A stretch of 64,000 nt of DNA, from positions 102,176,001 through 102,240,000 of the forward strand of contig OX597819.1 of NCBI GenBank assembly GCA_951406725.2. The letters run 5' to 3'. Under the pieces are notes generated by a model. That model was not told the DNA's origin. It ran no database searches and saw nothing but the letters and a program-made list of their open reading frames with translations. This DNA is from Octopus vulgaris. Taxonomy: Eukaryota. The translations under genes and the position numbers were made by a program. Shown in pieces: positions 1-56,075 of this stretch (positions within the stretch are counted from its first letter, which is position 1; every line of letters begins with the position of its first letter).

Positions 1-169
1 GGGAGATAATTCCGTTACGATCAGTTGACTGAAATTTTCAAACAGTATAGACAAACCAAATAAATGAGGGCCGAAGCATATAGACCGAAATGTGTCTCTC
101 ATTAATTACATAATCTGGGGACTACCGTAAATTTTTGTGTGCATTTGTGTGTGTGTGTGAGTGTGTATA

Positions 170-330
170 TCTTTTATCTGTTTCAGTCTTTAAAACGCGG
201 CCATGCTCACCTCGAATAGTTTTTGTTTAGTGGAATGAATCAAACCCAGCACTTATTTTTAAGACTGCTAATTATTCAATCGGTCTCTTTTGGCAAGCGG
301 CTCTACATACAAACACTGATACACACACAA
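170..330 (-). mobile_element. SINE family B, degenerate 3' half
   Basis: tgtttcagtc...cggccatgct...caatcggtctcttttggc resembles the reverse complement of the 3' half of the 50028-50507 copy. Confidence 0.65.
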
Positions 331-735
331 GGAATTATGTATATATATATATTAAAAGAAGTATATATACTTCTGTACGTGTGCACATATACGTTTATGT
401 ATATATATATATATATATATATATATATATATATATATATATATATATGTATGTAGAGTGAGAGAGAGAGAGAGAGAGAGAGATTCAGATATGCATGTAT
501 GTATATATGCTTGTATACGTATATGTCTTATAAACAAGGATCGCTGTTTAAGCTTTTACTAGACTGGCTTCAGGTTCAGACAATCTGAATATAGTCAAAA
601 GTTTTGGATTTTTATAGTCCCTGAATGTCTTCCACCGTATCCAGTATGCAAACCATGCAACATATGCTTCGTAGAACCTATTGAGTATGTGTTTGTGTAT
701 AGGTAAATATATGCGTCTAGCTCATATGTATATAG

Positions 736-1030
736 GGAAAGCACGTGGCTTAATGATTAGGATATTCGACTCCCGATCATAAGATTGTGAGTTCAATACA
801 CTGCGACCTGTTGTGTCCCTAAGCGAAACACTTTATTTCCCATTGCCCCAGTTCATTTCGATCACAAAAATGAGCAGTACTTGTATTTCAAAGAGCCAGC
901 CATGTCACAGTATGTCTCCCTGGTAACTACGTTCATGGTACACGTGTCTCTGGAGTCCTCAGGAACATGCACGTTGAATTCACTATCGCATCAACTGGAC
1001 CCCTCGTTGTCGTAAGCATCGGAGTGTCAA
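736..1030 (+). mobile_element. tRNA-headed SINE, family C head with a different 3' region
   Basis: gcacgtggcttaatgattagg...gtgagttcaat (A/B-box-like) then gttgtgtccctaagcgaaacactttatttcccattgccccagtt, parallel to the 61801 copy; 3' part differs. Confidence 0.7.
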
Positions 1031-1541
1031 TAAATCTTATGTATATTTGTGTACATATGTTGTATATATAAAAGACTATACAATTGTATTATACGTCGAT
1101 ATTTAACCACATATCCTCACATACACTCAAACTTAATATATATCTGTTATATAGTTTATAAATAACTATATATGATTATATGGATTTGTATGTGTATACA
1201 AGTGTACGCGCAAGGTAAAGTATGTGTACAGGTGTAAACGTATAGGCCGTATAAATTTATGTCTTTGTAGCCCCAACACGCACATACACACACATATATA
1301 TATATATAAACGTACACGTGAAAGGGGGAGGAGAAGGGAGAGAGACACAGAAAGCGTATTTCTCTTTTATTACTTCTGAAGAATAGATTTCGAAGTTTAT
1401 AATAACATTTTTCGATTTTCAAGATATTGGCATATTTTGATTATTGATCGTGAACGTCGATATGATCAATGTAATTATACTAATTTTATTTCAATTTCTC
1501 TATAACACACCTCACTTAATGTGTGTGTGTGTGAATATATA

Positions 1542-1708
1542 TGTTTTTTTATTTTCTCTTCCCGTTTACTTCTGTGTTCCTTTCTGTCGAAGAGCGTAGG
1601 CTCGAAACGTAAGAAGACTTTCTCATTTCCCGAGCGTTAAACTAATATATCTGTCTGTTATTTACATACCTGTCTTCATCTCTTTTTTTTGTAAATTTTC
1701 ACTACAGA
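1542..1708 (+). mobile_element. Short element E in (TA)n carrying a hammerhead-like motif
   Basis: Homologous to the reverse complement of 44838-45017 (gaagagcgtaggctcgaaac...ttcccgagcgttaaactaat...acctgtcttc); TA runs on both sides. Confidence 0.7.
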
Positions 1709-1872
1709 TATATATATATATATATATATATATATATATATATATATATATATATATATATATATTTCTACCTAACTTTCTATCTCTGTATATACATAAT
1801 CATCTATACATCCATATCTCTCCCTCTCTGTGTATATATATATATATATATATATATATATATATATATATA

Positions 1873-52295: not shown

Positions 52296-52660
52296 CACTC
52301 TTTTATTTATTTATTTTTTTGTTTCAGTCATTTGACCGCGGCATGCCGGAACACCACCTTACGTGGTTTTATTTAGGCAAATAAATCGATTCCCAAACTT
52401 CTTTTTTTAAGCTTAGTACTTATTCTATGGGCGTCTTTTGCCGAAACGCCATGTTATAGGAACGTAAACTCACCGGCACCGGTTTTCAAGCAATGATGGG
52501 GGACACCCACAGACACAAAGACATGCGCATAGTTATAACTACGGACTTCTTTCAGTTTCCCTCCCCCAAATCCCACCACATTCCTATGGTCGGACCGAGG
52601 CTACAGTAGGAGACACTCAAAGAAAGTCCCACGGAATGGGACTGCACCCGGAACGATGTT
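52296..52660 (-). mobile_element. SINE family B, degenerate
   Basis: gtttcagtcatttgaccgcggcatgc...tagtacttattctat...cttctttcagtttcc...gaggctacagtaggagacact. Confidence 0.85.
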
Positions 52661-52908
52661 AGTTAGTTAGTTAGTTAGTTTTATGGCTCAAAGCGCCTAT
52701 ATATGTGTATGTGTGTGTGTGTGTGTGAGTGTGTGTGTGCATACACGCGTGAGTATACAGATTCACAGACACGCACACAATCACACGTGCTTTATATAAT
52801 ATTAGAGTACATTCAAAAGTACAGGTGTAAATAGCTGGAACTCCGCTAAGGAGTTTCAGTGATTATACTTGTGAAAGTGTGTGTGTGAGAGAAAATGAGT
52901 GTAAGAAT

Positions 52909-53052
52909 GTATATATATATATATATATATATATATATATATATATATATATATATATATATATATGTATGTGTGTGTGTGTGTGTGTGTGTGTGTGTGT
53001 GTGTGTGTGTGTGTGTGTGTGTGTGTGTGTGTGTGTGTGTGTGTGTGTGTGT
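52909..53052. repeat. Compound (TA)n-(TG)n microsatellite
   Basis: Direct reading. Confidence 0.95.
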
Positions 53053-53317
53053 CTGTGTGCGTGCCTATGAGTGTGCAATTTCTTCAATTTAATGGACGCT
53101 AACGATTAACTTCGTTGCTACTCCGAGTCCCAATGAACTAGAAGTAGCGACGAAATTAAATTTAAGAATAGGTTTACTGATATCCTATTCATTGCAATGT
53201 TTTATCTATCTACACATACGCACATGCATGATTTTCAACACAACCCTATATATGTATATATAATATCGGCTCAACAGTCATTCTGCAACTATCAATCTAA
53301 GCACATACACACACACA

Positions 53318-53810
53318 TTACATATATATATATATGTATGTATATATATATATATATATATATATATATATATATATACACACATATATACACACACATA
53401 TATATATATATATATATATACACATATATCTACATATATACATATACATTTCTACATATACATATATACATATATATATACATATACATATATATATATA
53501 TATACATATATATACATACATATATATATATATACATATATATATATACATATATATATATATACATACATATATATAGTATGTATATACATATGTATAT
53601 ATATATATACATACATATATATACATATATACATACATATATATACATACATATATATATTTATACATATATATATATATATATACATACATATATATAC
53701 ATACATATATATATACATATGTATATATATATATATATACATACATATATATACATATATACATACATATATATATACACACACAAACACAAACGCACAC
53801 ACATACATAT
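53318..53810. repeat. Long degenerate (TA/CA)n tract
   Basis: About 500 bp of near-alternating purine-pyrimidine repeat; source of the 222 aa and 196 aa spurious ORFs. Confidence 0.92.
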
Positions 53811-55824
53811 TCAATTTTTGCGTTGCACTTTCCAAACCTATGAACACAAGCACACACACTTTTAATGCATATGCCGATATATATCATGTGTGCGTATATT
53901 GTGTGCATACATATATACTATACATGTATATTATATATACATACACAACTTATATATATTGATATATCTACAAGCATACATATAATGTTATATACACATA
54001 CATATTTTACATACATATTTTATATATACACACACACGCTGACACACATCTATATAACACCCAGATTTCTTCTCAGGTATATACATAAACACACACACAC
54101 GCACACAAATCCTCGTGTGCGCTCACATAAACTCACAATCACATACAGACACGCAAGCACACAACAGTCAGGCACGCTTCTGTACAACTTCCCAATACAG
54201 CTAGTCAAACACATAAGCAAAGGCTGAAGTGAAAATTTATATTGAATAAAATAAAGCCCAGTTTGACAGGACTAGTTGAGCAAAAGGATTTATGAACGCA
54301 CAGCCCTCCACTACCTCTGTACATATATTGCTGTATCTACATACGCACATGTAGCTATCTCTGCCTATGTCTGTGCATGTACTTATATGCATGTGAGTAG
54401 ACATAACAAGTTTAATTTCATTCTTTAATTCTTTAGAAATATTTTTCAGTTTCACTTGTAAGAAGTTAACCCCAGTCGTTCGAGGATGGATAAGAAGAAC
54501 AGGGCCCAAGAGGCACATGCTGAACTTTTAGAATACCTTGTATATATTTATAGTTCCGCATACCGACTGTATTTCGCGTTACTGTGTTCGATAGGAGCAG
54601 TTATGGCCATATGAGATTCTTACATTGAGACAATCAAGCGTATTTATATATACATGTTTGTATATGAATTTTGTAGATGCGTGCATATGTAAGCACAGAT
54701 GTATGCAAATATGCATGTATGGATCTTCGTGTATGTGTATATATGAAAGCTTGCATAAATGCATATAATAGCGGATAATGTGTATATGTCTGTGCAGGGA
54801 GCCGTATGTGTGTATGTGTACAGGGAGATATGCATACATATACACAGATTTTCAATATGCGCACGCGTACCTATATATCAATTATAACGATATATATATA
54901 TATATATATATATATATATATATATATATATATATATATATATATACCCCTTATGCATAAAGTCGCATAGATAAGCCCATATCACTTTGTACAATATAGG
55001 TATGCAGGCACACAGATAAGTATGAGAATATACATATATATATATATATATATATATATATACACACACACACACACACACACACGGATATATAAACAAT
55101 ATATTTGTATGTGTACGTATGCAATCTGTATGTATGTGTGTATAAATGTGCATGTTCGTGTGTATGTGTGAGTGCGTGGTGTATATATATATATATATAT
55201 ATATATATATATATATATATATTATATAGAGAGATATGCTGATATATATATATATATATATATATATATAAATATATACATAAGCATATATATGTACATA
55301 TATATACACAAGCATATATATATGTACATATATATATACATAAGCATATATATATATATGTACATATATATATACATAAGCATATATATATATATATATA
55401 TATATATATATATATATATATATATATATATTATATATATATATATATGCGAGTGTATGTGATTGTGTATATGTTACTGTGCGTGTGCTCCTAAGCCTGG
55501 CCTGATGCCGAAGACTGAGGAGGAGTGTGTCAACAATAAACAACATGTACATCATATAGATAATACATCACCAGTGTGTGTTAAATCCTGTTGAGTGTCC
55601 ATTTCGATTCAGTGCAGTTCATGCTTTGCCCATGTCTACTAATAAATACAAAGAAATATATATACATACATATATAGATATACATATATGCATATGTGCA
55701 TAAAGATATATATATATATATATATGTATACACTTATGCATATTATATATGTATATGAGCGCACAGACATGCACATATTCCTATGTGTTGTTTATGTGCG
55801 CTCGTGTATATATATCTATATGTA

Positions 55825-56075
55825 TATAATACATTATAATTGAAAAGTTCCGGTTTCCAGTACTCAGAGTTGTGAGTTTCCTATCATCAGCTGCTAAACA
55901 AGAAAGGCATCTTCAAATCAGAAATATTCAAAAGAAAACAAACAAATTGATGATCGAAAACAAGAAACTTTGTGTACTGGAAATTAGATCCTTTCAGGTA
56001 TAATATATTAAATTATAGGCTACATTTGTATTGAGTCCTCTAATATATCGCTTCTGGTGAGAGAATAGAGATTTA
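55825..56075 (-). mobile_element. ~250 bp TA-flanked element with hammerhead relic
   Basis: Minus strand AG-CUGAUGA-UAG..ACUCA/UGAGU..CUG-GAAA-CCGG at about 55845-55892; shares agctgatgatag with the 2063-2115 motif. Confidence 0.45.

What the first reader, a model, noticed from the sequence alone, without database searches (positions are those of the whole stretch)
63..55895. Dispersed population of small microsatellite-associated elements carrying minimal hammerhead ribozyme motifs
Seen: six good motifs (1578-1616, 2063-2115, 17395-17457, 35766-35810, 44929-44965, 55845-55892) and several relics share the layout stem I / C-N-G-N-N-G-A / stem II / GAAA / short palindromic stem III / NUH / stem I. 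Their flanks are mostly unrelated, and they lie in short inserts in or near TA repeats. Established: Penelope-like retroelements carry minimal type I hammerheads whose palindromic stem III is thought to need dimerisation, and non-autonomous hammerhead retroelements (retrozymes) exist. Inference: this genome hosts many families of TA-targeted, ribozyme-bearing non-autonomous retroelements, possibly uncatalogued.
Basis: partly seen in the sequence, partly recalled or inferred. Interest (0 to 1): 0.8.

Follow-up and report, generated by a model that had tools for sequence, protein, structure and literature searches.

The report
Penelope retroelement ends with minimal hammerheads
The hammerhead-ribozyme motifs are present and exceed chance, but they are most likely the decayed, truncated tail ends of several ordinary Penelope-like jumping genes lying beside TA repeats; the one oddity is a very abundant family with U instead of the usual A at core position 6, which would likely weaken cutting.

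Summary
The motifs are at the stated places. Four of six (1578, 2063, 17395, 35766) pass descriptors that shuffled windows rarely pass: 4 candidates vs 0.22 in 200 controls, and 3 of 4 have a palindromic stem III vs 4 of 44. The other two (44929, 55845) are relics. Every copy has a lesion. All six lie within 200 nt upstream of a TA run. 1578 and 44929 are one family (82% alike). It matches the published minimal Penelope hammerhead except for U at position 6, and public runs hold it in thousands of contigs, about 10^5-fold deeper than the neighbouring unique DNA. 55845 is half of a head-to-head inverted pair, a Penelope hallmark. No RT or GIY-YIG frame was found in the window, and no tandem retrozyme array. 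Dispersed single minimal hammerheads from truncated Penelope-like elements are already described (Cervera 2014). Best reading: 5'-truncated 3' ends of several such families, mostly dead. Distinct non-autonomous families are possible but not shown. Interest is low, apart from the high-copy U6 core variant.

The parts
1562..1706 (+). Family A copy 1: 3' end fragment with minimal hammerhead at 1578-1617 (core CUGUCGA with U6, unpaired A, stem II GAGC/GCUC, loopless helix III, predicted cleavage after 1611), ending at a TA run
   Evidence: the G at 1613 interrupts stem I and is absent or A in much of the laid depth
44845..45018 (-). Family A copy 2, between TA/TG runs; hammerhead relic at 44929-44965 (U6, G16.2A, broken stem I); reaches further 5' than copy 1
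   Evidence: 82% alike to copy 1, shared 3' end
1880..2172 (-). Family B insert between two TA runs; best-preserved hammerhead at 2063-2115 (CUGAUGA, U-U next to the core, 8-nt palindromic stem III, 4-bp stem I)
   Evidence: self-duplex -9.8 kcal/mol; insert limits read from the TA runs
17395..17490 (+). Family D fragment; hammerhead at 17395-17457 (U4C, long stem II one base out of register, 9-nt near-palindrome, 6-bp stem I)
35600..35833 (+). Family E fragment; hammerhead at 35766-35810 (U4G, damaged stem II, 10-nt palindrome with two U-U mismatches, 5-bp stem I); 5' limit approximate
55824..55889 (-). Family F arm 1: hammerhead relic (exact CUGAUGA, no U16.1, no stem I) running outward into TA-rich DNA
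55948..56013 (+). Family F arm 2 (new here): inverted second copy of the same relic; the 5'-truncated ends of the two arms face each other 58 nt apart
   Evidence: 66 nt, 74% complementary; 0 of 500 shuffles reach the score
25460..25575 (.). Candidate relic G (new here): CUGAUGA core on + at about 25510 and a head-to-head mirror core on -; possible second inverted pair
   Evidence: score 23.7; halves align with 12 and 6 of 500 shuffles as good; tentative
63..110 (+). Possible hammerhead relic with a deleted core; stem I hairpin only
   Evidence: fold z -2.4; not among the 45 best; tentative

Best explanation
The window holds solitary, mutated minimal type I hammerhead motifs from at least five unrelated sequence families, each just upstream of a TA run, and they are most likely the 5'-truncated 3' ends (solo pseudo-LTR pieces) of Penelope-like retrotransposons. 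Inferred mechanism, from published Penelope biology: the element's GIY-YIG endonuclease nicks AT-rich/TA DNA. Its reverse transcriptase starts at an internal RNA site tens to about 200 nt downstream of the hammerhead and usually stops early, leaving a short piece that still carries the hammerhead, sometimes as a head-to-head inverted pair. In the parent's tandem transcript two such motifs would pair through the palindromic stem III and cut slowly. The single genomic copies here would mostly be inactive. Shown: motifs, lesions, TA neighbourhood, inverted pair, very high abundance of family A. Inferred: the parent elements, the insertion route, any cleavage.
For: Family A matches the published consensus of Penelope minimal hammerheads feature by feature (U-rich 5' flank, 4-bp helix I, unpaired base after position 9, G10.1-C11.1, loopless palindromic helix III; PMC4209133) except position 6. 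That paper reports thousands of such motifs per genome, heterogeneous, mostly single, 'probably related to truncated PLEs', and pairs on opposite strands 100-700 bp apart. The inverted pair at 55824-56013 fits the 'inverted 5'-truncated copy' structure and the TA insertion bias described in PMC8557442. The two A copies share the 3' end and differ at the 5' end. All inserts run on past the predicted cleavage site, as expected if uncut RNA is the template; in the anole element hammerhead mutants do not affect insertion in vitro and RT starts downstream of the motif (PMC11167929). Family A is present in runs of three species labels: 9231, 6260 and 5188 contigs laid on the stretch, summed depth 5.6 million vs 40 on the adjacent unique DNA in X1. 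If the host is an octopus (my recall of its repeats; no call names it), Penelope-like elements cover 6.83% of the O. vulgaris genome in 190 families (PMC13282606 supplement).
Against: No RT or GIY-YIG sequence was found: 0 relevant Pfam hits in 150 of 248 stop-free, non-repetitive frames of 45 aa or more, no convincing short-motif match, and the frame upstream of motif E gave no relative and one chance hit to a repetitive bacterial protein. So linkage to a coding element is not shown. Both A copies and B are only 150-300 nt long with TA runs on both sides, which also fits short non-autonomous elements. No covariation was seen inside family A (its stems are nearly invariant). Only family A's abundance was tested; B, D, E and F are single in the window.
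Confidence: 0.72

Rival explanations
1. Some families (A and B above all) are true short non-autonomous elements with fixed ends, copied in trans by a TA-targeting Penelope protein.
For: Short inserts flanked by TA runs on both sides; very high abundance of A; no coding sequence nearby; a 2026 preprint argues that animal retrozymes are non-autonomous Penelope derivatives with dispersed monomers (10.64898/2026.07.22.740005).
Against: The two A copies have different 5' ends, and loose ends show further upstream variants. No tandem array with a hammerhead was seen. Helix sizes are those of Penelope minimal motifs, not the canonical motifs of retrozymes (PMC7229834). Heavy 5' truncation explains the same picture.
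Confidence: 0.2
2. Only family A and one or two other motifs are real element ends; the rest are chance matches in AT-rich DNA.
For: Every copy has lesions. Below score 22 the real window does not exceed shuffles. Monomer folds are unremarkable. No Rfam match.
Against: 2063, 17395 and 35766 pass a held-out test, and the F pair is significant.
Confidence: 0.06
3. Element B is a miniature inverted-repeat DNA transposon that happens to contain a hammerhead-like motif.
For: Short inverted matches near its two ends (16 nt 88%, 13 nt 85%) and TA on both sides.
Against: End-to-end similarity is not significant (155 and 81 of 500 shuffles as good); the motif has a perfect core, palindrome and stem I.
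Confidence: 0.02

Closest known systems
Minimal hammerheads (min-HHR) of metazoan Penelope-like elements (Cervera & De la Pena 2014, PMC4209133; Lunse et al. 2017, seen only as a title in a reference list)
   Same: Type I topology, short helix I, unpaired base after position 9, minimal or palindromic helix III, many unrelated families per genome, mostly dispersed single copies, occasional opposite-strand pairs.
   Different: Family A carries U at position 6 in both window copies and in most laid depth. Every motif in the part of the published alignment that I read (supplement file 2, part 2 of 3) has A6, and that part has no cephalopod entry.
EN+ Penelope-like elements with TA bias (Neptune, Naiad; Craig et al. 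2021, PMC8557442)
   Same: 5' truncation, inverted truncated copies, microsatellite insertion bias; the two octopus Naiads are listed with (TA)n preference.
   Different: No ORF seen here, so the clade is not assigned. Naiads lack canonical hammerheads, so these would belong to other clades.
Non-LTR retrozymes (Cervera & De la Pena 2020, PMC7229834; Li et al. 2026 preprint)
   Same: Short, non-coding, hammerhead-bearing repeats that can occur as dispersed monomers.
   Different: Retrozymes are tandem repeats of about 300 bp with canonical type I motifs and circular RNAs. No such array is seen here, and the motifs are of the minimal kind.

Membership tests
Penelope-type minimal type I hammerhead | Core CUGANGA ... 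GAAA ... UH | tested here: inconclusive
   CUGANGA exact in 2 of 6 (2063, 55845), one change in 4 of 6; U16.1 missing in 55845. Decay explains most changes, but A6U is shared by both family A copies.
Penelope-type minimal type I hammerhead | Unpaired base after position 9 and a G10.1-C11.1 pair | tested here: met
   Met in both family A copies and formally in 35766; not met in 2063 (U-U) or 55845; 17395 is one base out of register.
Penelope-type minimal type I hammerhead | Minimal or palindromic helix III that cannot fold in a monomer | tested here: met
   1578, 2063, 17395 and 35766 self-pair (-1.7, -9.8, -7.4, -4.9 kcal/mol) and give no monomer hairpin; 44929 does not self-pair; enrichment 3 of 4 vs 4 of 44.
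Penelope-type minimal type I hammerhead | Short helix I (4-6 bp) | tested here: met
   4, 6 and 5 bp in 2063, 17395 and 35766; interrupted in 1578; lost in 44929 and 55845.
Penelope-type minimal type I hammerhead | Self-cleavage as a dimer | not testable with these tools
   Needs an in vitro assay.
Penelope-like element (EN+) | RT plus GIY-YIG ORF linked to the hammerhead-bearing repeat | tested here: inconclusive
   None found in the window; truncated copies need not carry it, and no genome was held.
Penelope-like element (EN+) | 5' truncation with inverted truncated copies | tested here: met
   Inverted pair 55824-56013; the A copies share the 3' end only.
Penelope-like element (EN+) | Insertion in AT-rich or microsatellite DNA | tested here: met
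   6 of 6 motifs within 200 nt upstream of a TA run vs 37% background; association only, targeting not shown.
Penelope-like element (EN+) | Dispersed multi-copy family | tested here: met
   Family A only; the other families were not tested.
Penelope-like element (EN+) | Optional 30-40 bp tail and partial tandem pseudo-LTR | not tested
   Needs many full loci; one tandem joint at single-copy depth was seen in three runs.
Non-LTR retrozyme | Tandem repeat units each with a canonical type I hammerhead | tested here: not met
   No such array among the 150 of 177 tandem-repeat rows shown or in the self-comparison.
Non-LTR retrozyme | Abundant circular RNA | not testable with these tools
   Only contig-level runs were laid.
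Rfam hammerhead families | Score at or above the gathering threshold | tested here: not met
   Only a 5S rRNA match at gathering threshold; no hammerhead at E<=10 over 1880-2170.

The most novel reading that the evidence does not exclude
Family A is a Penelope-derived repeat that spread to thousands up to about 10^5 copies, in at least three related species, with a fixed A6U change in the hammerhead core while keeping all three stems. It would be either an undescribed natural core variant that still cuts (as a dimer or with protein help) or a natural case in which the hammerhead fold is kept for a non-catalytic role such as binding the element's protein. It may also be a short non-autonomous TA-targeted element.
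Probability: 0.25. Interest if true: 0.5.

Novelty: new member of a known kind. Interest (0 to 1): 0.24.

Why it matters
As a class this is known: it adds one more animal genome littered with truncated Penelope ends, and shows that a hammerhead descriptor can label repeats that Rfam misses. The part worth a bench test is family A. The role of the hammerhead in Penelope elements is an open question (processing, late protein-assisted step, or passenger). A very successful family with a fixed change at a position where a natural A6C variant cut only slowly (PMC3088659) is a natural test of whether cleavage matters for spread.

Tried and rejected
No whole genome was held, so no genome-wide scan, consensus building or covariation test was possible. 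Rfam E-value scan of the window: the 150 of 801 rows shown were microRNA-like matches to TA/TG repeats plus one 5S match, with no hammerhead. Exact-pattern scans for family A in viral, metagenome and prokaryote contigs, and for family B in metagenomes: 0 each. A MAFFT alignment of four motifs did not keep the cores in register, so no covariance model was built. Pfam on 150 of 248 frames: one weak DUF3307 match only. Recalled resemblance of short peptides upstream of motif E (KPTLQ and NRITFPL, in two frames, 35684-35717) to the end of a Penelope GIY-YIG domain: patterns were written after seeing the sequence, and database searches gave no support, so it is a lead only. A similar peptide at 25389-25427 got only sub-0.9 Atlas hits and overlaps a weak hammerhead-like match, so it was dropped. 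1330-1516, which I suspected was another repeat, is near single-copy. Terminal inverted repeats in B and in both A copies: not significant. The sharp depth peak over the family A motif was not taken as proof that the ribozyme is better conserved than its flanks, because this copy's own mutations from 1613 onward break the alignment of short contigs. No RNA holder was listed with certainty, and run X6 is only guessed to be RNA: nothing is concluded on expression. Other scan hits (13307, 16570, 14980, 3956, 38937) are not separable from noise. A literature search for a SINE motif to name the host found 0 papers. Our earlier findings: nothing for this genome or these sequences.
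Full report
Setting. The window is AT-rich animal-type DNA (GC 29-40% per 2 kb) with about 21% microsatellite and many copies of two SINE-like repeats. No genome was held, and the organism labels of public runs are coded. From recall of its repeats I take it to be octopus DNA; no call shows this, and statements that depend on it are marked.

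Observation. To avoid circularity I chose candidates on core, U16.1 and stem I alone: 4 in the window vs 0.22 in 200 controls, and 3 of the 4 had a palindromic stem III vs 4 of 44 control candidates. So the signal is real. The quality is uneven, though. 2063 has an exact core but U-U beside it; 17395 has U4C and a register slip; 35766 has U4G and a damaged stem II; 1578 has A6U and an extra base in stem I; 44929 and 55845 have lost stem I and part of stem III. No monomer of the six folds better than shuffles, and Rfam reports no hammerhead. All six lie within 200 nt upstream of a TA run vs 37% of random positions. This is association, and TA runs can also grow after insertion.

Families. 1578 and 44929 are one family, A (82% over 118 nt). 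They share the 3' end next to TA-rich DNA and differ at the 5' end. Laying four public runs on 1330-1706 gave single-copy depth on 1330-1516 (40 in X1, 19 in X2) and summed depth of 5.6, 6.2 and 1.3 million over the motif in runs of three species labels, from 9231, 6260 and 5188 contigs. The tool warns that summed contig depth is no copy number. Allowing up to 31-fold overcounting by overlapping contigs, the ratio spans about 4,500-140,000 (X1) and 10,600-330,000 (X2), in line with 2 copies in 64 kb. No other letter reached 5% at 1584-1595 or 1597-1607. Listed changes in the motif are CpG-type (1596, 1608, 1609) and at the cleavage base (1611). So the stems are nearly invariant (no covariation to score), and U at position 6 appears dominant. 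Caveats: changes near contig ends may be unlisted, and the thinly supported loose-end consensus shows U6 in three runs but A6 in X2, so A6 subfamilies may exist. B, D, E and F are single in the window, and their abundance was not tested.

New anatomy. 55845 is half of an inverted pair: arms 55824-55889 and 55948-56013, 66 nt, 74% complementary, 0 of 500 shuffles as good. Each arm starts at the hammerhead core and runs outward into TA-rich DNA. A weaker candidate of the same kind lies at 25460-25575 (12 and 6 of 500 shuffles as good). A joint 1612 to 1573 in three DNA runs, at single-copy depth, shows one tandem duplication of the A motif elsewhere.

Coding link. None was found. 150 of 248 stop-free non-repetitive frames gave no RT or GIY-YIG Pfam hit. 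Short-motif scans were empty of convincing matches. The frame upstream of motif E gave no relative and one chance hit to a repetitive bacterial protein. This counts against my reading only weakly, since short truncated copies need not carry coding sequence, but it leaves membership unproven.

Mechanism. Shown: motifs, lesions, TA neighbourhood, shared 3' end in A, inverted pair, abundance of A. Inferred from papers: Penelope-like elements are heavily 5'-truncated, form inverted truncated copies and favour microsatellites (PMC8557442; passages, section 6 and supplement searches read; long sequences in that supplement are cut, so its DNA could not be compared). The anole element nicks AT-rich DNA, starts reverse transcription internally downstream of the hammerhead, and inserts in vitro without hammerhead cleavage; its ribozyme cuts only with the protein present (PMC11167929, parts 1-2 of 4). 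This predicts short 3' pieces that contain an uncut hammerhead and end tens to 200 nt further on, as seen. The palindromic stem III would pair between two motifs in a tandem transcript (self-duplex energies). Solitary mutated copies would not cut.

Comparison with what is known. Cervera & De la Pena 2014 (PMC4209133; parts 1-2 of 4, supplement file 2 passages and part 2 of 3; file 1 could not be searched) describe this situation: thousands of heterogeneous minimal hammerheads per genome, mostly single and probably truncated Penelope elements, some in opposite-strand pairs, with low dimer activity. Family A fits their consensus except A6U. Non-LTR retrozymes are tandem units with canonical motifs (PMC7229834, passages); a 2026 preprint derives them from Penelope pseudo-LTRs (parts 1-2 of 5; supplements closed). 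No such array is seen here. For cephalopods, the giant squid paper counts 235 Rfam hammerhead 1 hits (PMC6962438, passage), and O. vulgaris has 190 Penelope-like families covering 6.83% (PMC13282606, parts 1-2 of 3 and supplement search); that supplement has no mention of hammerheads. Perreault 2011 (PMC3088659, passages and section 8) reports a natural A6C variant with low activity and notes that U10.1-U11.1, as in 2063, is tolerated. My searches listed no study of hammerheads in cephalopod Penelope elements and no natural A6U hammerhead. The two papers listed were not opened, Lunse et al. 2017 (title seen in PMC6765202) is not held and may cover such variants, and the library lacks most subscription papers. 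One earlier AI note from another genome reached a like verdict; it is not independent evidence.

Verdict. Real motifs, known kind: most likely dead 3' ends of several Penelope-like families (0.72). Short non-autonomous families remain possible (0.2). Interest 0.24, carried mostly by the high-copy U6 core.

Noticed in passing
window 36804-36915 (-): Decayed 5S rRNA-like copy above the Rfam gathering score (49.9 vs 38 bits). Its 3' end abuts a SINE fragment (36731-36812): a pseudogene or a 5S-derived SINE.
   Followed up: no
window, e.g. 4306-4913, 16833-17332, 42495-42911, 49251-49766, 50028-51304, 56096-56375: Two abundant SINE-like families, with about 10-15 copies each, often nested or adjacent; 686-874, 45075-45436 and 61754-62150 share a tRNA-like head.
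   Followed up: no
window 1922-1967 and 2131-2160: Two internal palindromes inside element B, on either side of its hammerhead.
   Followed up: partly
window 25388-25573: Mirror CUGAUGAG cores head-to-head at 25494-25517, a 25-nt direct repeat 126 nt apart, and a weak hammerhead-like match at 25388-25427: possibly a tandem plus inverted Penelope-type structure.
   Followed up: partly
window 35684-35717 (+): Short peptides in two frames, 50-80 nt upstream of motif E, recall the end of a Penelope GIY-YIG domain (recalled likeness; searches gave no support).
   Followed up: yes
window 13307-13346 (-) and 16570-16609 (-): Further hammerhead-like matches (scores 25.0 and 22.9) that cannot be told from chance; 13307 has a perfect 8-nt palindrome and abuts a SINE.
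   Followed up: partly
public runs X1, X2, X14 laid on window 1573-1612: A joint from 1612 back to 1573 with 7 letters between, at single-copy depth in all three DNA runs: one locus elsewhere with a tandem family A hammerhead shared across species labels.
   Followed up: no
window 27877-28094: 94-nt unit in 2.3 tandem copies at 97% identity, separated by TA runs: a recent local duplication or an assembly artefact.
   Followed up: no
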